A stretch of 64,000 nt of DNA from Patescibacteria group bacterium (GTDB lineage: Bacteria > Patescibacteriota > Minisyncoccia > 2-02-FULL-40-12 > IGHO2-01-FULL-4-A). Shown here one piece after another: positions 33,579-59,588 of this stretch; position 1 is the stretch's first letter, and every line of letters starts with the position of its first letter. Location: NCBI GenBank assembly GCA_038064915.1, contig JBBTSB010000005.1, positions 10,615 through 74,614 on the forward strand, read 5' to 3'. The notes beneath the pieces were generated by a model. It did no database searches, was not told the origin of the DNA, and saw nothing but the letters and a program-made list of their open reading frames with translations. Position numbers and translations under genes: made by a program.

Positions 33579-33589
33579 TAAGCAGTGGA

Positions 33590-34048
33590 CCAGGGGGTAT
33601 TGAAACCCCGTCTGGAAATATGTTTAACCGAGTACTACACGCGTAGCCCATCTTCTGTACAGATGATACTCAAAGTCGGGCGAAACGTATCATCCGTGTA
33701 CTGATTGATACAATGCATATCCAGCAGGACAACTAGAGATACAAGGCTACTCGCTTTTGACGCCCACTCCTCCTAGCGAGTATCAGGGGGTGAACGACAG
33801 CTTAACCGAAGTTAGGCTGTAGCGTATCCATAGCCGGAGCTATAGGCAGCTGAATAGGTGTTTTTAGCACTTATAGGTTTGCGAATAGTTTCACGAGGTG
33901 TTCGCAAGCTCGGCGTGCACTTGGTGTAAAGGTACTTCCATCAAAACTCGCAGGCCCATATGAAAATACTAACGCATTTCGTAAAAAAGTGTTACAACCC
34001 GCAGGGCCGACGCGTCGCCTTTCGGCAACGATCGACCCCACGGGGGAG
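33590..34048 (-). other. ~460-nt hairpin-rich non-coding segment (candidate structured RNA or long 3' UTR) between the GC-rich ORF and the terminator
   Basis: No ORF over 30 codons with an SD; several inverted repeats (GTATCA..TGATAC, TTGCGAA..TTCGCAA, GCC-TTTC-GGC); I could not match tmRNA or RNase P hallmarks by eye. Confidence 0.35.
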
Positions 34049-34642
34049 CTACTGGATGCGGTGCGGCGCGGGAACGCTCCCTAGCAGGAGCCGGCGGAGG
34101 TCGAAGAACTCGCAGATGAAGTTCTTCGCGAGCTCATCGAACCGTCGCGCCTTGTCCTCGGGGACGCTGGCGATCTGACCGATCGTCAGGACCTCGAGCC
34201 CGTTGACTCCGAGGCCGCAGAGGGCGATGAGGGCCTTGACGAGCTCGATGTGCGTGTCGGTGAAGGAAGTCTCCGAGGACCTCTTGGGAGGCTCGAAGAG
34301 CTCCATCATCCTCGCCTCGCCGACCTTGCTGAGGACCGGGACGCGGTAGTGGGTGCCGCCGGCCTTGCCCCAGGCGATCCGGAGAAGCCCGCGCTCGCGG
34401 AGCATGTTCCAGTTCGCCGTGAGGTGCGCCTTCCCGCCGACGTCGGCGACGGCGCGACGGAGCCGATGGAGGCCGATCCCGATCGCACCCCTCCGGTTCA
34501 CCCACAGCTTGTTGTCGTCGATGAACCGGTTGACGTTCACGACGAGCTTCGCGAAGTCCTCGAGTTTCGTGGTGACCCGGGGGAGCTCGCTTACCAGTGC
34601 GAGATCCAGCCCAGGCATCATGCCGTCGCTTCGCATACTCAT
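34049..34642 (-). CDS. GC-rich hypothetical protein (197 aa), probably horizontally acquired
   Basis: ~65% GC (estimated by eye) with very high GC3; AAGGAGGA SD 8 nt before the ATG; no catalytic motif recognised. Confidence 0.6.
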   Translation of the reverse strand: MSMRSDGMMPGLDLALVSELPRVTTKLEDFAKLVVNVNRFIDDNKLWVNRRGAIGIGLHRLRRAVADVGGKAHLTANWNMLRERGLLRIAWGKAGGTHYRVPVLSKVGEARMMELFEPPKRSSETSFTDTHIELVKALIALCGLGVNGLEVLTIGQIASVPEDKARRFDELAKNFICEFFDLRRLLLGSVPAPHRIQ

Positions 34643-34708
34643 ACCTTCATTCCTCCTTGTTGGTCTGTGTACGAAAAGCCGCGGGGGATCCGCGACTATC
34701 GTGAATGA

Positions 34709-34737
34709 ATCATAGCACTATAGTATAAAATAGTCAA
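34709..34737 (-). promoter_or_regulatory. Near-consensus sigma70 promoter TTGACT-N17-TATGAT for the 197-aa ORF
   Basis: Minus strand: cTTGACTattttatactatagtgcTATGATtc, ~65 nt upstream of the ATG. Confidence 0.55.
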
Positions 34738-35171
34738 GTTTTTAGTTCCCTTGCGATTGTGCGTTTTGCTTCGCGTTTTTTGATGGTTTCGCGTTTGTCG
34801 TATTTCTTTTTGCCTCGCGCGATGCCGAGTTCGAGCTTGAGGAGGCCGTGGTGGTCAAAGATTTTGAGGGGAACGAGGGTAAGACCGCGTTCATCGGCTT
34901 TGCCGATGAGGTATTTGAGTTCTGATTTTTTTAAAAGTAGCTTGCGTGTGCGCTGATCGTCGTAGTCTTTTGGCATATTCCCCGGCTGGTAGGGGGCGAT
35001 GGTGGCGCCCACAAGATATGCCTCACCCCCGAGGATTTTTACGTACGATCCCTTGATAGAAATCTTGCCGGTGCGGATAGATTTTACTTCAGGGCCATGC
35101 AAAACGAGACCAGCGGTAAGGGTTTCCAAAATTTCATAATCGAACCTAGCTTGTTGATTTTCGATTTGCAT
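34734..35171 (-). CDS. smpB: SsrA-binding protein
   Basis: ARFDYEILETLTAGLVLHGPEVKSIRTGKISIKGSYVKILGGEAYLVGATIAPY...KLLLKKSEL.. aligns with SmpB; start ATG 35171. Confidence 0.9.
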   Translation of the reverse strand: MQIENQQARFDYEILETLTAGLVLHGPEVKSIRTGKISIKGSYVKILGGEAYLVGATIAPYQPGNMPKDYDDQRTRKLLLKKSELKYLIGKADERGLTLVPLKIFDHHGLLKLELGIARGKKKYDKRETIKKREAKRTIARELKT

Positions 35172-54398: not shown

Positions 54399-55878
54399 TT
54401 TTTTACACTTCTATCAGCCGGCGGGACAACAAGACGATATTTTGGAAGCTATCGTCGATCAATCGTATCGGCCGCTCTTTGAAGGGTTTGCTGCGCGCCC
54501 GCGACTGCGCCTCACCATCAACATCAATGGTTCTCTCATGGAACTGTTTGATACAACAAAATATCGCGGGCTGATTGACATCTTACGAACGATGGGCAAA
54601 GAGGGGAGACTAGAGTTTACCTCTACGGCAAAATTCCACGCAGTATTGCCATTTATCAATGAACAGGAAATCCTTCGCCAGGTTACGCTCAACGACGAGA
54701 CGAATCGTTTCTATCTTGGCGAGGCATACCAACCGCGGGGGTTTTTTGCGCCGGAGATGGCGTACAAGCCGGAGCTTACGTCCATTATCGAAAACATGGG
54801 ATTTCAGTGGCTGATTCTGGATGAAATTGCCGGCACCGGTGGCACAGGTCTCATTGACTATACCAAAACCCATCAGATCAAGGGATCAAGCCTCCGTGTA
54901 TTTTTCCGCGAGCGTCGCTTGAGCAACCTCATCATGAGCGCGGTGGTGCGTTCACCGGAGACGCTTAAAGATGCGATGAAAGATGATCTTGCCAGCGGCC
55001 GCTACATGGTGACAGCGATGGATGGGGAGACGTTTGGCCACCACCGGCCGGGGTTGCATCGGCTCTTGCTGGGAATTTACGACACGCCGGATTTTGAACT
55101 GATTCAGGTTTCCGAGATTGAGAAATATTTTCCGGAGATCAAAGAGATCCAACTCATCGCCTCCACCTGGGCGTCAAGCAAGGAAGATATCGAGCGTGGC
55201 GCGCAGTTTTTGTCCTGGTCTGATCCGGAGAATGTATTGCATCACCTGCAGTGGGACTTTACCAAGCTCGTGCTCGATGAAGTGTACCGGCTTGCTCCGA
55301 GCCATCCCGCATATCCCATAGTGCGAAATAAAATGGATATGGCGCTTGCCAGTGACCATTTTTGGTGGGCATCGGCAAAGCCATGGTGGAGTCTCGAAAT
55401 GATCGAGATCGGCGCATTCCGCTTGCTTGATACGATCCGTCAAATTCCCGATGTCGCCGTCGAACGCCTCGAGCGGGCAAGCAACTACTACATGGAAATT
55501 GTTATCACAGCATTTGCCTGGCAGCGTTCCGGGAAAATTCGCTCTATGATGAAGGAACAGCAGTCGATGCTCCGCATTCCGTTTAAAGACCGGACCATTG
55601 GTCGTGGAGGAGCGGAAGAGGGCGTGTACCATGCCTTTATCGATATGATGAAAGATCTGGAGCAAAAAGCGGCGCAGACCGGAGAATATGAAAAGGCGAT
55701 TCTCTGGCGCGACGCGCTGTTTAAGCTCGAAAACAAACTCGACATCTACGATACTATCAATGCCATTGATCTTTTGCGCGTGGAAATTCCGCACAAGGAC
55801 GTTGAGGCAACGATCGAAAAGTACAAAGCAAAATATCACGCCATCCGCGGTGGCCAACCCGAACAGCGGGGAAGCTAA
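54385..55878 (+). CDS. Glycoside hydrolase family 57 protein (alpha-glucan processing)
   Basis: N-terminal ...NFLHFYQP... and the catalytic region E..FGHH are typical of GH57. Confidence 0.65.
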   Translation: MRWANFLHFYQPAGQQDDILEAIVDQSYRPLFEGFAARPRLRLTININGSLMELFDTTKYRGLIDILRTMGKEGRLEFTSTAKFHAVLPFINEQEILRQVTLNDETNRFYLGEAYQPRGFFAPEMAYKPELTSIIENMGFQWLILDEIAGTGGTGLIDYTKTHQIKGSSLRVFFRERRLSNLIMSAVVRSPETLKDAMKDDLASGRYMVTAMDGETFGHHRPGLHRLLLGIYDTPDFELIQVSEIEKYFPEIKEIQLIASTWASSKEDIERGAQFLSWSDPENVLHHLQWDFTKLVLDEVYRLAPSHPAYPIVRNKMDMALASDHFWWASAKPWWSLEMIEIGAFRLLDTIRQIPDVAVERLERASNYYMEIVITAFAWQRSGKIRSMMKEQQSMLRIPFKDRTIGRGGAEEGVYHAFIDMMKDLEQKAAQTGEYEKAILWRDALFKLENKLDIYDTINAIDLLRVEIPHKDVEATIEKYKAKYHAIRGGQPEQRGS

Positions 55879-55923
55879 GAAACCGTATTGCTGAAGAGGG
55901 TGATAGGGAGTGGGAGTAGTGGT

Positions 55924-56916
55924 TTACCGAGGTGATTTTTCAGGGTACCAATTGACGATTTCTTCGTGAAGCACAAAAATGTCGTTACTGATGACATCGC
56001 CTGCAAAGGTATTGCGGATGTTATTTATGATTTCCTTAAGACGCGTGTTATGGGCGACTGCAAACTCAAGCACAAGATCGTATTTACCCAAAAGTGTACT
56101 GGCAAAGGTGGATTCGGGAATCGTGGTTGCATGTTTGATGATCGACTCCACTACGGTTTGTGACTTGAGAGTAAATACCACCTGATAATGCTCCACACCA
56201 AATTTCCCGAAATTAATATCGAGTACAGGCGCACCGAGGATGCCGGTCTTTTTTAACTTTTCAATTCGATAGCGAACGACATTTACATGTGTTTTTGCCT
56301 GTCGCGCGATGGCAGAAAGATTTTCTCGCGCATTTTGGGCAAGTCGTTTGATGATGAGATGATCGATATCATCGATATTGGTTTGCTGTAAATCTTCAGG
56401 ATACGTATCGCGTTGCACCTTGCCGCCGTCGTAAAAGAAGCGAAAATTGAAACGATTTACCTGTGTTAGGGTGAGAATTTCCTGTTCGAGAATATATTCA
56501 CCAAACTTTGCCTTGAATGGTTGTAGGAATTGCTGAAGATCTTCGAGATTGCGTGCGATAACCAAAAAAGTTACATCATAACGTCCCTCAAGTCCTGCCA
56601 AGTAGGCGATAGATTTGTGGTGTTTGAGATAATTGGTTATTTCTTCTTCTTTTTGCTGTGTAGCCTTCTGAAACTTAAAGAAAAATTTGTAATAGTAGTA
56701 TCCAAGGCGTGAAATATGCACCGTCGTGCGAAAGTTTTTGATAAAACCGTTGGCGGTGAGACGCTTAACTCGAAAAGCTACCGTCTCCTTCGGGATTTTT
56801 ATTTTGTCAGCCAATCCCTGAAAAGAAGCATCGCTTTTGAGATCAAGCTCATAAAGTAGCTTTTGATCAGTAATATCGAGGTTTTTTTGTATTTTTGTCA
56901 TATTTCTATTGCTCAA
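55924..56916 (-). CDS. Tandem Lrp/AsnC-type transcriptional regulator
   Basis: Two HTH_AsnC-like segments (DQKLLYELDLKSDASFQGLADKIKIPKETVAFRVKRL; DHLIIKRLAQNARENLSAIARQAKTHVNVVRYRIEKL), each followed by a RAM-like domain. Confidence 0.65.
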   Translation of the reverse strand: MSNRNMTKIQKNLDITDQKLLYELDLKSDASFQGLADKIKIPKETVAFRVKRLTANGFIKNFRTTVHISRLGYYYYKFFFKFQKATQQKEEEITNYLKHHKSIAYLAGLEGRYDVTFLVIARNLEDLQQFLQPFKAKFGEYILEQEILTLTQVNRFNFRFFYDGGKVQRDTYPEDLQQTNIDDIDHLIIKRLAQNARENLSAIARQAKTHVNVVRYRIEKLKKTGILGAPVLDINFGKFGVEHYQVVFTLKSQTVVESIIKHATTIPESTFASTLLGKYDLVLEFAVAHNTRLKEIINNIRNTFAGDVISNDIFVLHEEIVNWYPEKSPR

Positions 56917-56969
56917 CTATACATAAGTCTAGCATATATTTTAATATTGTGCAAGTTTTATATCAACAG

Positions 56970-56997
56970 CTTGACCAAATATAGAATAGGTATATAA
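56970..56997 (+). promoter_or_regulatory. Near-consensus sigma70 promoter TTGACC-N16-TATAAT for the GC-rich two-gene cassette
   Basis: cTTGACCaaatatagaataggtaTATAATtacg. Confidence 0.5.
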
Positions 56998-57028
56998 TTA
57001 CGTTAAGCCTGTGGAAAGGGGGAAGAAA

Positions 57029-57367
57029 GTGAAATGTGGGGTGAGGGGTCCTGATCGTGACACGATTCTTCAGATGCCGACGAAGGTCTACGAAAGATGG
57101 CTCTTGGATGAGGAAGCGCTCGAGTACTATGTCCGCGGAGGACCGGATGAAGACCGGCACATCTGGCTCCTCGACGGTGAGCGGAACGTCCTGATCGAGC
57201 TAAAGCAGGGATACAGGAGTACCGATCACTGGAGCGACAGGGTGGGAGAAACTATCGGCAAGGTGATAGAGAAGTTGAAAGCAGAGGGTAAGCGTCCACG
57301 CTTCGCCCTGATCATCAACGATCCGCCCGGCATGGACGGATGCCAAGGTCTCTACGTCATCGCATAA
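57029..57367 (+). CDS. GC-rich hypothetical protein (~112 aa; alternative GTG start at 57011)
   Basis: SD AAGGGGGAAG 6 nt before GTG 57029; elevated GC (~55-58%, estimated by eye); sequence ...LDGERNVLIELKQGYRSTDHWSDRVGETIGKVIEKLKAEGKRPRFALIINDPPGMDGCQGLYVIA. Confidence 0.5.
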   Translation: MKCGVRGPDRDTILQMPTKVYERWLLDEEALEYYVRGGPDEDRHIWLLDGERNVLIELKQGYRSTDHWSDRVGETIGKVIEKLKAEGKRPRFALIINDPPGMDGCQGLYVIA

Positions 57368-57376
57368 GGAGTAGCC

Positions 57377-57541
57377 ATGAAGCATCGACCGTGCAGTTGT
57401 ACCAAAAAGATCCAGGAACTCGAGAGCAAGCTGCAAAAGATCGGGGAGCGTGTGCTCGGACTCGAAGCGCTTGCGATGCAAAAGGCCCTCCGAGATTTAC
57501 GAGCTGAGGCTCGGCTTCTCAAGGAGGAGCTTGAACGGTGA
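57377..57541 (+). CDS. Small coiled-coil protein (54 aa), second gene of the GC-rich cassette
   Basis: AAGGAG SD 6 nt before ATG 57377; MKHRPCSCTKKIQELESKLQKIGERVLGLEALAMQKALRDLRAEARLLKEELER; not in the supplied ORF track (under 60 aa). Confidence 0.5.
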   Translation: MKHRPCSCTKKIQELESKLQKIGERVLGLEALAMQKALRDLRAEARLLKEELER

Positions 57542-57581
57542 TAGTTCTCTGCCAAGTCCAGGGATAGGCTCCGGGTTGCGC

Positions 57582-57623
57582 GGTATCCTGTGCGCGTAAA
57601 AAGCGGATACCATCTTTTTTTTT
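57582..57623 (+). terminator. Rho-independent terminator GGTATCC-N16-GGATACC followed by T9
   Basis: 7-bp stem plus a poly-T run; a second hairpin AAATCCCC-GAAA-GGGGATTT follows at 57644-57663. Confidence 0.6.
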
Positions 57624-57683
57624 GGCGCTAAGAAACAAGGCATTAAATCCCCGAAAGGGGATTTAATGTTGAGACCGAAATAT

Positions 57684-58253
57684 TTATCGATTAACGAGGA
57701 GCGGCAGGGGATTGAGGGCTTCACGATGAGCGTACATCCCAAAGTGCAGATGTGGAGGGGTGGTTTCGGCATTGCCAGTGTTTCCTACATATCCGATGAC
57801 CGTATCGGGAGTGACCGATTGGCCGATGTGAATGCCATCCGCAAACCGGTCCAGGTGTGCGTAGTAATATCGGCGCGCCCCCGAGCCGATGATGTACATG
57901 GCATTTCCTCCAAGCTCCACGTCTCCTTTATAGAGGACGTAGCCGGAGGTTCCGGAAAACACGGGTGTTCCTTTTGTAGCAAAAATATCCTGGCCTTCAT
58001 GTGTTCGATCATTCCCGCGCGGCGCGCCCCAGGTATCGGTAATACCCGATACTTTTGTTCCATACACCGGCATGAGGATAGTAGCATCCGGCTCCTGCGA
58101 CGCAAGCTTTGCTATTTTGTATGGTAGAGTGACCTGCTCAATAAAGCTCGTGATTTTTTCGGGGTGAGTTTTTACATATCGTATTCCAAACGCAAAAAAA
58201 CCCACTACGCAGATGAGAAATAATCCGCAAATGATAAAAAGTTTTTTGGGCAT
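57684..58253 (-). CDS. M23 family metallopeptidase (LytM-like), membrane-anchored
   Basis: N-terminal TM; HEGQDIFA....PV....G and PHLHFGMY M23 motifs. Confidence 0.8.
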   Translation of the reverse strand: MPKKLFIICGLFLICVVGFFAFGIRYVKTHPEKITSFIEQVTLPYKIAKLASQEPDATILMPVYGTKVSGITDTWGAPRGNDRTHEGQDIFATKGTPVFSGTSGYVLYKGDVELGGNAMYIIGSGARRYYYAHLDRFADGIHIGQSVTPDTVIGYVGNTGNAETTPPHLHFGMYAHREALNPLPLLVNR

Positions 58254-58424
58254 CTAGATACTATATACTACAAAAGAAAAAGAAAAAACTTACGATAAAC
58301 TGAGATTGTTAAAAGAGTTTCAATAGTGACAAAATAAACAACACGCCAGCAACGATCAGATAAATTCCATTTCGTGACCGGAAGTAAAGAAATATTCCAC
58401 AGAGCATGAGAATAAAATAAATCA

Positions 58425-58750
58425 TTTGCTCCCGGGCAGGGACTCAGTCGCGCCTCTCGCGATGCCGTCGCATCGCTCGGGCTGACCACCACCTCGCGGA
58501 TTCATCTGCTGATTCATCATCGCTCCGGCGTTCTCGCCCTGACGTGAGTGCGATTGCGCACTCACTCCCGTCATCAAACGTGAAGCGTTTGCTCCCGGGC
58601 AGGGACTCAGTCGCGCCTCTCGCGATGCCGTCGCATCGCTCGGGCTGACCACCACCTCGCGGATTCATCTGCTGATTCATCATCGCTCCGGCGTTCTCGC
58701 CCTGACGTGAGTGCGATTGCGCACTCACTCCCGTCATCAAACGTGAAGCG
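58425..58750. repeat. Two perfect 163-bp tandem repeats, each a 142-bp GC-rich unit plus the last 21 nt of tRNA-Gln
   Basis: Units 58425-58587 and 58588-58750 appear identical; each starts with TTTGCTCCCGGGCAGGGACTC (reverse complement of the tRNA-Gln 3' end) and carries the hairpins GCGATGC-CGTC-GCATCGC and GTGAGTGCG-ATT-GCGCACTCAC. Confidence 0.85.
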
Positions 58751-58754
58751 TTTG

Positions 58755-58825
58755 CTCCCGGGCAGGGACTCGAACCCCAATTACATGATTCAGAGTCATG
58801 TGTCCTACCATTAGACGACCCGGGA
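58755..58825 (-). tRNA. tRNA-Gln(CUG)
   Basis: U1:A72 and G73; D-arm GTCT-AATGGTA-GGAC; anticodon arm CATGA-CTCTGAA-TCATG; T-arm TGGGG-TTCGAGT-CCCTG. Confidence 0.8.
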
Positions 58826-58878
58826 ATGTTTCTATACAATACCGAAAAATTGCGTTAGAGTAAAGAGAAAATCGAGCC

Positions 58879-59343
58879 ATGAAGCAAATCGAAAAAGCAA
58901 AATATGAAATGCCGTTTGAAAGTTCTGAAGAAGATTCCCATACGGTTAGCGTTTATGAAAAAAAATATGATGTATATCGTTTAATGCAACTTGCCCAAGA
59001 ACTTATCGTCACCCGTTTCAACACAGAACAATTGGCCTTAAAATTCCTTGATGATGAATGTTGGGATGATGAAAATGGAAATTTAACTACACCAAGAAAA
59101 GTTCTTGAAGCAATTCAATCAGTACGGGGAAATTATGGAGACGCTATGCGGAATCATCCTCTCTTACTTGATCATATTGCTGCTATAAAAGAAGCCGATC
59201 CTAATTATCCCATTCTCCTTGGACCGGATGGAACTGTTATTGATGGTGCACATCGTGTTATAAAGGCTCTACTAAATGGTGCGTCTGATGTTCCCATACG
59301 TCGGTTTGAGACTATGCCAGAAGATGCTAAGATGCAATCTTAA
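58879..59343 (+). CDS. ParB-like nuclease domain protein (154 aa)
   Basis: C-terminal ILLGPDGTVIDGAHRVIKAL resembles the ParB/sulfiredoxin-fold DGxHR motif. Confidence 0.5.
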   Translation: MKQIEKAKYEMPFESSEEDSHTVSVYEKKYDVYRLMQLAQELIVTRFNTEQLALKFLDDECWDDENGNLTTPRKVLEAIQSVRGNYGDAMRNHPLLLDHIAAIKEADPNYPILLGPDGTVIDGAHRVIKALLNGASDVPIRRFETMPEDAKMQS

Positions 59344-59348
59344 ATTTT

Positions 59349-59588
59349 ATGTACACGCTTTACCTCATGCTCTGTCGCGACGACTCCATCTACACCGGCA
59401 TTACGACGGATATGGAACGGAGATTTAAGGAGCACCAAAATGGAGAGGGGAGCAGGTATACGCGGGCGAAAAAGGCAGTGAAGATTTTGTATACGGAAAA
59501 GTTTAAGACGCGAAGTAAAGCGTCAAAGAGGGAATATGAGATCAAGAGCTGGAGTAGGCAGAGAAAGTTAGCTATGATCAGCATATGA
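59349..59588 (+). CDS. GIY-YIG nuclease family small protein
   Basis: YTLYLMLCRDDSIYTGITTDMERRFKEHQNG GIY-YIG motif. Confidence 0.75.
   Translation: MYTLYLMLCRDDSIYTGITTDMERRFKEHQNGEGSRYTRAKKAVKILYTEKFKTRSKASKREYEIKSWSRQRKLAMISI

What the first reader, a model, noticed from the sequence alone, without database searches (positions are those of the whole stretch)
56970..57663. GC-enriched two-gene cassette (112-aa protein plus 54-aa coiled-coil protein) with its own promoter and terminator
TTGACC-N16-TATAAT, then a GTG-start ORF with an AAGGGGGAAG SD, a second ORF with an AAGGAG SD (MKHRPCSC...coiled coil), and a GGTATCC..GGATACC-T9 terminator. GC is well above the neighbours. The cassette lies about 1.2 kb from tRNA-Gln and its att-like tandem repeats. 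The size and gene pairing fit a toxin-antitoxin or small effector with a chaperone, but I recognise no family.
Basis: partly seen in the sequence, partly recalled or inferred. Interest (0 to 1): 0.55.

Follow-up and report, generated by a model that had tools for sequence, protein, structure and literature searches.

The report
Orphan two-gene cargo in swappable slot
Two small genes with no detectable relatives sit between a promoter and a folded 3' element that related groundwater bacteria also have but fill with unrelated genes, so this is a lineage-specific swapped-in cargo of unknown function, not a self-contained cassette or a recognisable toxin-antitoxin pair.

Summary
The described sequence features are all present. 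There is a TTGACC-16-TATAAT promoter, ORF1 (112 aa from GTG 57029), ORF2 (54 aa, its SD overlapping the ORF1 stop), a GGTATCC/GGATACC hairpin with T9, and GC of 0.55, which is in the top 2% of the window. Both ORFs show frame-specific coding signal, and the tandem layout is rare in shuffles (0.2%). Neither has a family hit or a homologue outside the same species, even in an exhaustive HMMER scan for ORF1.

The promoter and 3' end are not the cassette's own. Two related Patescibacteria (L008, L003) share the Lrp/AsnC regulator gene, the divergent promoter region and a 128-nt 3' element (57542-57670). That element is 80-89% identical, against 66-78% for the regulator's coding DNA. Between these flanks they carry unrelated small orphan genes. 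More distant relatives carry a UbiA-like membrane protein there. The T9 run is the 5' arm of a hairpin supported by covariation.

No integrase, phage gene or flanking att repeat bounds the cassette.

Best reading: horizontally acquired orphan cargo in a regulator-controlled replacement slot. A toxin-antitoxin role is untested and has no positive support.

The parts
55924..56916 (-). Fused double Lrp/AsnC-type regulator gene (330-aa ORF; annotated as 325 aa, starting at 56901). It is the conserved left anchor of the block.
   Evidence: Pfam finds HTH_24/HTH_AsnC-type twice and AsnC_trans_reg. NCBIfam gives sub-threshold LysM/AsnC/Lrp-type hits. Homologues are 84% identical in L008 and 68% in L003.
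56917..56998 (.). Conserved divergent control region. The rightward promoter has -35 at 56971-56976 and -10 at 56993-56998. The leftward AsnC promoter is TTGATA-17-TAAAAT (56966 to 56938). Invariant motifs are TAGCATATATT (56930-56940) and TTGTGCAA (56947-56954).
   Evidence: Promoter scan. A five-genome alignment has TTGAC invariant and a TAtAAT-like -10 at 16-17 nt in every genome. Homologous promoters are found in L008 and L003. Similarity to relatives ends just after the -10.
56999..57541 (+). Lineage-specific cargo: the 5' UTR plus ORF1 and ORF2. It has GC 0.551 and no similarity to the cargo of relatives.
   Evidence: blastn, tblastn and tblastx against related loci match only the flanks. 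Smith-Waterman comparisons among cargo proteins give z below 1.2.
57029..57367 (+). ORF1, 112 aa from a GTG with an AGGGGGAAG SD (alternative starts at 57011 and 57041). It is acidic (pI 5.4), soluble, and has no transmembrane segment.
   Evidence: The only homologue is the same species at 99% identity. No family hits.
57377..57541 (+). ORF2, 54 aa. Its AAGGAG SD overlaps the ORF1 stop. It is basic (pI 9.4), with an N-terminal MKHRPCSC followed by heptad-patterned amphipathic helix.
   Evidence: It matches only itself in 5.8 billion clusters. No family or PDB hits.
57542..57612 (+). 5' half of the conserved 3' element. It is shared only with L008 and L003.
   Evidence: blastn gives 83-91% identity. 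The core 22-mer is unique in the window. It is found in only one other metagenome contig, which is the L003 contig, and in no viral contig. There is no Rfam match.
57618..57635 (+). Middle hairpin/palindrome TTTTTTGG-CG-CTAAGAAA. Its 5' arm is the 'T9' run.
   Evidence: It is conserved in six genomes, with 3 of 7 pairs showing compensatory changes and 100% of cells paired.
57641..57668 (.). Hairpin 2, CATTAAATCCCC-GAAA-GGGGATTTAATG. It is a generic bidirectional terminator-type hairpin and the likely terminator of the convergent M23 peptidase gene.
   Evidence: The terminator scan lists it on the minus strand and on both strands in L008. It shows compensatory changes across six genomes. The same 20-mer core occurs in 69 unrelated viral contigs, so it is a generic motif.

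Best explanation
**What it is**
- ORF1 and ORF2 form a real, co-translated two-gene operon of orphan small soluble proteins. One is acidic and 112 aa. The other is basic, 54 aa and helical.
- The operon was acquired horizontally by one Patescibacteria lineage.
- It occupies a pre-existing expression slot. The slot consists of a sigma-70-type promoter divergent from a fused double Lrp/AsnC regulator gene, and a conserved multi-hairpin 3' element.
- Sister genomes fill the same slot with unrelated small orphan genes. More distant relatives fill it with a UbiA-like membrane protein.

**How it works**
- Shown: the cargo starts right after the -10 box and ends at the stop codon of its last gene.
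- Inferred: it is transcribed from the resident promoter, is probably controlled by the neighbouring regulator, and is terminated by the resident hairpins.
- Inferred: cargo is exchanged by recombination that uses or respects the conserved flanks.

**Function**
- The biochemical function is unknown.
- The rapid turnover, the small paired proteins of opposite charge, and the parallel large-plus-small basic pair in L008 make a conflict-type accessory role the most plausible guess. That could be toxin-antitoxin-like, immunity, or an anti-phage or anti-host factor.
- This last step is inference only.
For: - **Coding reality.** Only frame 0 scores positive (0.14 and 0.21, against -0.26 to -0.78 in the shifted frames). 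GC1 > GC2 < GC3. Both genes have an SD plus start codon, separated by 9 nt. The tandem ORF layout appears in 0.2% of shuffles. The sequence is identical in independent assemblies of the species.
- **Orphan status.** ORF1 has no homologue beyond the same species, either in the word-indexed search or in an exhaustive HMMER scan of 1.84 billion representatives. ORF2 had only the word-indexed search, which returned only itself.
- **Foreign composition.** GC is 0.55 and GC3 is 0.61-0.68. These are higher than in any of 32 native genes and in the top 2% of windows.
- **Resident frame.** The window shares only the AsnC gene, the promoter region and the 128-nt element with L008 and L003.
- **Element conservation.** Element identity is 89/80/86.5%, against 77.5/66.3/68.1% for AsnC coding DNA. 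A 1-nt indel rules out coding.
- **Promoters.** They sit at homologous positions in L008 and L003.
- **Cargo in relatives.**
  - L008 carries 137 aa plus about 52 aa (basic), both with an SD.
  - L003 carries 122 aa plus 64 aa.
  - The cargo proteins show no similarity to one another.
  - A UbiA-like gene fills the slot in L002, L009-L013 and L084.
- **3' hairpins.** They are conserved with covariation across six genomes.
- **No mobile-element context.** No phage or integrase genes are nearby.
Against: - No expression data exist, and no protein homologues exist to test for purifying selection.
- The only population SNP in 10.6 kb is nonsynonymous and lies in ORF1: position 57125, Tyr/Asp.
- ORF1's coding score (0.14) is at the low end of native genes, which average 0.25 with sd 0.06. 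That is expected for foreign DNA but also for weak or non-coding sequence.
- Only three genomes carry the full frame, so 'hot spot' rests on three cargo states plus the UbiA-like state.
- The direction of change, with UbiA-like as the ancestral state, is inferred from its wider distribution and not from a tree.
- Regulation by the AsnC-type protein is inferred from divergent-promoter geometry and conserved motifs only.
Confidence: 0.6

Rival explanations
1. It is a type II toxin-antitoxin module. One protein is a toxin and the other neutralises it by direct binding, and the pair autoregulates its own promoter.
For: There are two small adjacent co-directional genes with a 9-nt gap and an SD overlapping the upstream stop codon. 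The charges are opposite, pI 5.4 against 9.4. The locus turns over rapidly among relatives, as toxin-antitoxin and defence loci do. L008 has a parallel large-plus-small pair.
Against: There are no hits to any toxin, antitoxin or defence model in Pfam, NCBIfam, PADLOC or PHROGs. No recognisable DNA-binding antitoxin domain is present. The promoter is resident and is shared with loci that encode a UbiA-like membrane protein, so it is not a dedicated autoregulated toxin-antitoxin promoter. There are no homologues at all, which is unusual for toxin-antitoxin families.
Confidence: 0.12
2. It is non-functional filler. The cargo is a decaying remnant of foreign DNA captured between the promoter and terminator, and the two ORFs are not maintained as genes.
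For: The ORFs have no homologues. ORF1's coding score is below the native mean. The sole polymorphism is nonsynonymous. An ORF of at least 112 codons arises in 3% of shuffles.
Against: Two tandem ORFs filling at least 90% of the cargo occur in only 0.2% of shuffles. Both have well-spaced SD motifs and a coupling arrangement. Both show a frame-specific GC1 > GC2 < GC3 pattern. The cargo genes in L008 and L003 show the same pattern, and their first genes (in L008 both genes) have SDs.
Confidence: 0.15
3. It is a mobile gene cassette whose 3' structured element (57542-57670) is a recombination site, analogous to an integron attC. In that case cargo plus element moves as a unit into the site next to the regulator gene.
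For: The element begins 1-7 nt after the stop codon of the last cargo gene in all three genomes. It is more conserved than the neighbouring coding DNA. It is an island of conservation with unrelated genes on both sides. It is rich in hairpins.
Against: No integrase or recombinase adjoins the slot. L008 has a serine recombinase, but it lies 1.3 kb or more away behind two other genes. No RYYYAAC/GTTRRRY boxes bound the element when the sequence is read. There is a single copy per locus and no array. The 3' half of the element also follows the UbiA-like gene in distant relatives, which points to vertical residence. The core was found in only one other metagenome contig.
Confidence: 0.07
4. It is a phage moron or a remnant of a tRNA-Gln-integrated element. 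In that case the cassette arrived with a prophage or island inserted at tRNA-Gln and stayed behind.
For: The GC differs from the neighbours and the unit has a promoter and a terminator-like 3' end. That matches the published description of morons (PMC3594210). tRNA-Gln with tandem copies of its 3' end lies 1.1 kb away.
Against: There are no phage or integrase genes in 50-64 kb. ORF1 and ORF2 have no relatives in IMG/VR viral contigs, and ORF1 has none in the phage or plasmid records. tRNA-derived repeats do not flank the cassette. The promoter and terminator are resident rather than imported. The neighbours of the slot in L008 and L003 are not tRNA-Gln.
Confidence: 0.05

Closest known systems
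Replacement-type flexible genomic islands or islets, where conserved flanks hold non-homologous cargo in related strains. This concept comes from my own knowledge of the comparative-genomics literature, not from a paper read here.
   Same: Related genomes have identical flanks with unrelated gene content between them. The cargo is compositionally deviant. No integrase is involved.
   Different: This one is very small (0.55-0.94 kb, 2-3 genes). Its boundaries coincide with the -10 box of a resident promoter and with a resident structured 3' element, so a whole transcription-unit body is swapped. It is seen between species-level lineages of Patescibacteria rather than between strains.
Phage morons (PMC3594210)
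   Same: It is a small extra transcription unit whose GC content differs from the neighbours. It is bracketed by a promoter and a terminator-like structure and encodes small accessory proteins.
   Different: It is not in a prophage. The promoter and terminator belong to the host locus and predate the cargo. It replaces a gene rather than adding 'more DNA' between two conserved genes.
Integron gene cassettes (ORF plus attC, expressed from a resident Pc promoter)
   Same: Promoterless cargo is expressed from a resident promoter next to a divergently transcribed gene. A conserved imperfect-palindrome element lies directly after the cargo ORF.
   Different: There is no IntI integrase, no attI, no R''/R' core sites and no array. 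The divergent gene is an Lrp/AsnC-type regulator.
Type II toxin-antitoxin operons
   Same: There are two small, tightly coupled co-directional genes with products of opposite charge, and the locus turns over rapidly.
   Different: Neither protein belongs to any known family. No DNA-binding antitoxin domain is present. The promoter is shared with non-toxin-antitoxin cargo in relatives.

Membership tests
Type II toxin-antitoxin system | At least one protein belongs to a known toxin or antitoxin family | tested here: not met
   No hits in Pfam, NCBIfam or PADLOC at E up to 1. The only PHROG entry is one sub-threshold hit of unknown function (E 0.09). No significant PDB sequence hits.
Type II toxin-antitoxin system | Two small adjacent co-directional genes in one operon | tested here: met
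   ORF1 is at 57029-57367 and ORF2 at 57377-57541, 9 nt apart, with the SD overlapping the upstream stop codon.
Type II toxin-antitoxin system | Toxicity of one component that the partner neutralises | not testable with these tools
   This needs expression experiments.
Phage moron | Located inside a prophage or phage genome between conserved phage genes | tested here: not met
   The neighbours are GH57, glycogen synthase, an Lrp/AsnC regulator, an M23 peptidase, tRNA-Gln, an aldo-keto reductase and MgsA. PHROG and phage searches gave no significant match; the only PHROG entry for ORF1 is sub-threshold (E 0.09).
Phage moron | Brings its own promoter and terminator | tested here: not met
   The promoter and the 3' hairpins are conserved in relatives that carry other cargo.
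Phage moron | [quoted passage not shown] | tested here: met
   The cargo is 0.551, against 0.41 for AsnC and 0.472 for the window. This is in the top 2% of windows.
Integron gene cassette | attC site with complementary R'' (RYYYAAC) and R' (GTTRRRY) boxes at the cassette's 3' end | tested here: not met
   Reading 57530-57680 on both strands gives no such pair. The nearest is GTTGAGA, which fails at the last position (sequence).
Integron gene cassette | Adjacent tyrosine-recombinase IntI and an attI site | tested here: not met
   The divergent gene is a double Lrp/AsnC regulator. No integrase is present in 50-64 kb.
tRNA-integrated genomic island | Island bounded by direct repeats of the tRNA 3' end, with an integrase | tested here: not met
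   Copies of the tRNA-Gln 3' end occur only at 58420-58771. None lies left of the cassette. There is no integrase.
Replacement-type variable locus | Conserved flanks in related genomes with non-homologous cargo between them | tested here: met
   The flanks are 72-91% identical. The cargo shows no similarity at either the DNA or the protein level in the window, L008 and L003.
Excalibur calcium-binding domain (PF05901), suggested by a weak hit of ORF1 to P0003 | Match to the domain profile, with the two cysteines and the DxDxDG loop | tested here: not met
   Pfam gives no hit at E up to 1. hhalign against the P0003 repeats gives 20% probability. In the best BLASTP pairing, a Cys and the DGNG calcium-loop residues of the repeat align to other residues in ORF1. 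The full-sequence E-value of 2.6e-4 was inflated by the six repeats matched in the subject.

The most novel reading that the evidence does not exclude
The regulator gene, its divergent promoter and the 128-nt multi-hairpin 3' element together form a dedicated 'plug-in' expression slot in these Patescibacteria. On this reading the 3' element is not just a terminator. It would be a recognition or recombination site (or a 3'-UTR RNA module) that lets unrelated orphan gene cassettes be exchanged precisely between the transcription start and the terminator. That would be an integron-like logic without an integron integrase.
Probability: 0.07. Interest if true: 0.7.

Novelty: new member of a known kind. 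Interest (0 to 1): 0.33.

Why it matters
The two proteins are singletons with no family, like much of the Patescibacteria (candidate phyla radiation, CPR) proteome, so by themselves they are ordinary. The locus architecture is more useful.

Three related genomes keep a regulator gene, a promoter and a structured 3' element. The 3' element is more conserved than the neighbouring coding sequence. Between these parts, everything from the transcription start to the last stop codon has been swapped.

If this holds in more genomes, it gives a concrete and easily searched example of how reduced episymbiotic bacteria acquire and express novel small genes. It would also flag a conserved non-coding element of unknown role.

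Tried and rejected
**Family and homology searches**
- Pfam, PHROGs, PADLOC and NCBIfam scans of both ORFs gave nothing above noise.
- The large-database searches returned only the same species. The exhaustive HMMER scan for ORF1 added two weak hits.
- Both weak hits are artefacts of repeats in the subject. P0003 has Excalibur repeats and P0004 has Myb repeats. The hhalign probability for P0003 is 20%.
- PDB sequence search, phage and plasmid tblastn and viral-contig scans found nothing.
- Cargo proteins of L008 and L003 had no informative hits against Pfam, PHROGs, NCBIfam, PDB or phages. The exception is a sub-threshold receiver-like match for the L003 122-aa protein.

**The 3' element**
- Rfam at the gathering threshold and at E up to 10 gave only chance-level CRISPR-repeat and leader hits on hairpin 2.
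- A core-22-mer scan of metagenome contigs returned only the L003 contig. The viral scan returned none.
- The hairpin-2 core is generic, with 69 viral contigs carrying it, so it was dropped as a homology marker.

**Other ideas tested and dropped**
- The cargo as a degraded UbiA-like gene: tblastn finds no similarity, and the GC is opposite, 0.55 against 0.39-0.43.
- The cargo proteins of the three genomes as diverged homologues: Smith-Waterman z is below 1.2 for all pairs.
- SD motifs as a sign of foreign origin: few native genes show an SD at the longest-ORF start. However, the UbiA-like gene of relatives also has AAGGAG, so this is uninformative.
- An att or island link to tRNA-Gln: no flanking repeat exists, and the repeat unit has no match elsewhere.
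- More distant AsnC homologue contexts did not add members of the clade (L083, L088, L089-L092).

**Not available**
Full report
**Observation.**
- The promoter is TTGACC-16-TATAAT at 56971-56998. It scores 11/12 and is the best promoter-like site in 55800-59000.
- An open frame runs 57011-57367. The GTG at 57029 follows GGAAAGGGGGAAG and gives 112 aa. NCBI annotates a 108-aa version from 57041.
- ORF2 (57377-57541, 54 aa) starts 9 nt after the ORF1 stop, with AAGGAG overlapping that stop.
- GGTATCC (57583) and GGATACC (57612) followed by ATC-T9 are there.
- GC is 0.551 for the cargo, with GC3 of 0.68 and 0.61. The window is 0.472, and 32 long genes range 0.405-0.512. Only 2% of equal-sized windows are as GC-rich.
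- tRNA-Gln(CTG) lies at 58754-58825 on the minus strand. It is followed by 2.1 perfect 163-bp tandem units that each start with the tRNA 3' end.

**Are the ORFs genes?** The evidence favours real genes.
- For both ORFs only the annotated frame has a clearly positive codon log-odds score (0.14 and 0.21). The shifted frames score -0.26 to -0.78. The native mean is 0.25 with sd 0.06. GC1 > GC2 < GC3, as in real coding sequence.
- In 5000 dinucleotide shuffles of the cargo, an ORF of at least 112 codons appears in 3%. Two tandem ORFs covering at least 90% appear in 0.2%.
- Independent assemblies of the same species are identical, apart from one SNP at 57125 that changes Tyr to Asp in ORF1.
- Both products are soluble, with no transmembrane segment. 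ORF1 is acidic (pI 5.4). ORF2 is basic (pI 9.4), with hydrophobic residues at a/d heptad positions over residues 12-33 and 27-52.

**What are they?** They are orphans.
- There is nothing in Pfam, PHROGs, PADLOC or NCBIfam.
- The word-indexed search of 5.8 billion clusters returns only the same species.
- An exhaustive HMMER pass over 1.84 billion representatives for ORF1 adds two weak hits. Both are inflated by internal repeats in the subject, Excalibur and Myb.
- hhalign against the Excalibur-like repeats gives 20% probability, and the defining Cys and calcium-loop residues are absent.
- PDB sequences and viral contigs give nothing for either ORF. Phage and plasmid records, searched with ORF1 only, also give nothing.

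**Context in relatives, the main result.** I used the neighbouring fused double Lrp/AsnC regulator (55924-56916, minus strand) as an anchor and retrieved related loci.
- Two Patescibacteria share with the window only three things. They are L008 (regulator 84% identical) and L003 (68%).
  - the regulator gene;
  - the divergent intergenic region through the -35 and -10 of the rightward promoter;
  - a 128-nt non-coding element that begins 1-7 nt after the stop codon of the last cargo gene, window 57542-57670.
- The element is 89/80/86.5% identical in the three pairs. The regulator's coding DNA is 77.5/66.3/68.1% identical, and the intergenic region is 72.5%.
- A 1-nt indel in the T-run shifts every frame, so the element is not coding.
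- Homologous promoters are predicted in L008 (TTGACT-17-TAAAAT) and L003 (TTGACA-17-TAAAAT).
- Between these flanks the content is unrelated.
  - L008 has a 137-aa gene plus a basic gene of about 52 aa, both with an SD.
  - L003 has a 122-aa weakly receiver-like gene, a doubtful 110-aa ORF and a 64-aa gene.
  - No pair of cargo proteins is similar (Smith-Waterman z below 1.2). tblastx matches only the element.
  - The cargos of the window and L008 are clearly GC-enriched relative to their flanks, and L003's only slightly; all show coding-type codon-position GC.
- Genes beyond the element also differ: an M23 peptidase here, a 142-aa membrane protein in L008, and a Gmad2/Germane protein in L003.
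- In more distant relatives (L002, L009-L013, L084; regulator 60-69% identical) the slot holds a 207-229-aa UbiA-like membrane protein.

**The 3' element.**
- A covariance model built from the three full copies finds the 3' half of the element directly after the UbiA-like gene in the distant relatives. That half comprises the T-run, a middle palindrome and hairpin 2.
- On a six-genome alignment both 3' helices are 100% paired, with compensatory changes in 5 pairs. Slid controls give 40-61% pairing, with at most one compensatory pair.
The terminator scan does not list it, and it is not the minimum-energy fold of its region.
- Hairpin 2 (57641-57668) is a strong terminator-type hairpin of generic sequence, with the same 20-mer in 69 viral contigs. 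It is flagged as a terminator on the minus strand here and on both strands in L008.
- The 5' half (57542-57612) is specific to the three genomes. It has no Rfam match. Its core occurs once in the window and in only one other metagenome contig, which is the L003 contig. Its role is unexplained.

**Interpretation.**
- The cassette is not self-contained. It is lineage-specific cargo plugged into a resident frame of regulator, promoter and terminator. The cargo boundaries sit just after the -10 box and at the last stop codon.
- The most economical mechanism is horizontal acquisition and replacement at conserved flanks. Transcription would then run from the resident promoter, probably under the Lrp/AsnC-type regulator. 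The back-to-back promoters and the invariant TTGTGCAA and TAGCATATATT motifs point that way.
- Regulation and the direction of change, with UbiA-like as the ancestral state, are inferences.
- There is no integrase, no phage gene and no att repeat bounding the cassette. There are no integron core sites either (sequence read).
- The published definition of a moron requires its own promoter and terminator, deviant GC and a prophage setting (PMC3594210). Only the GC criterion is met here.
- A toxin-antitoxin function fits only by size, pairing and charge. No family evidence supports it.

**Verdict.**
- This is a real, probably expressed, orphan two-gene operon of unknown function in a small replacement-type variable slot. 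As such it is a new member of a known kind.
- The slot architecture and the over-conserved 3' element are the parts worth following up.

Noticed in passing
window 58420-58771 (next to tRNA-Gln at 58754-58825, minus strand): There are 2.1 perfect tandem copies of a 163-bp GC-rich (0.62) unit. Each copy starts with the last ~21 nt of tRNA-Gln, and each contains two strong hairpins. There is no Rfam hit and no match in viral contigs or in the fetched loci. Another assembly of the same species ends at 58454, inside the repeat. It could be an att-like remnant or an assembly artefact.
   Followed up: partly
window 57542-57612; L008 5203-5272; L003 8925-8994: This ~70-nt non-coding stretch lies directly after the cargo stop codon. 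It is 80-90% identical in three genomes, which makes it more conserved than the adjacent regulator's coding DNA. It matches no Rfam family, and its function is unexplained.
   Followed up: partly
window 55924-56916 (minus strand): The fused double Lrp/AsnC protein has homologues at 47-52% identity in DPANN archaea (Micrarchaeota, Woesearchaeota, Nanoarchaeota) as well as in Patescibacteria. This suggests cross-domain sharing among ultra-small episymbionts.
   Followed up: no
L008 1-3826: The closest relative carries a large serine recombinase with an HTH_17 protein and a primase-like gene. This block lies 1.3-5 kb beyond the conserved element and is a probable integrated mobile element.
   Followed up: no
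L003 11045-11517: Two small ORFs (83 and 74 aa) sit just downstream of the regulator gene in L003. By eye they look like a HicB/HicA toxin-antitoxin pair, but no family scan was run. The window has nothing equivalent at this position.
   Followed up: no
window 33675-34932: This is the most compositionally deviant part of the window. It holds the tmRNA gene (33583-33957, minus strand) and a 197-aa ORF (34049-34642, minus strand) with an AGGAGG SD.
   Followed up: no
window 58879-59588: A 154-aa protein matches a phage family of unknown function (phrog_17560, E 2.7e-9). It is followed by a 79-aa stand-alone GIY-YIG nuclease domain protein, immediately on the other side of tRNA-Gln.
   Followed up: no
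window 57125: This is the only real SNP in 10.6 kb between two assemblies of the species. It is nonsynonymous in ORF1 (Tyr/Asp). One short-read contig ends exactly at this position.
   Followed up: yes
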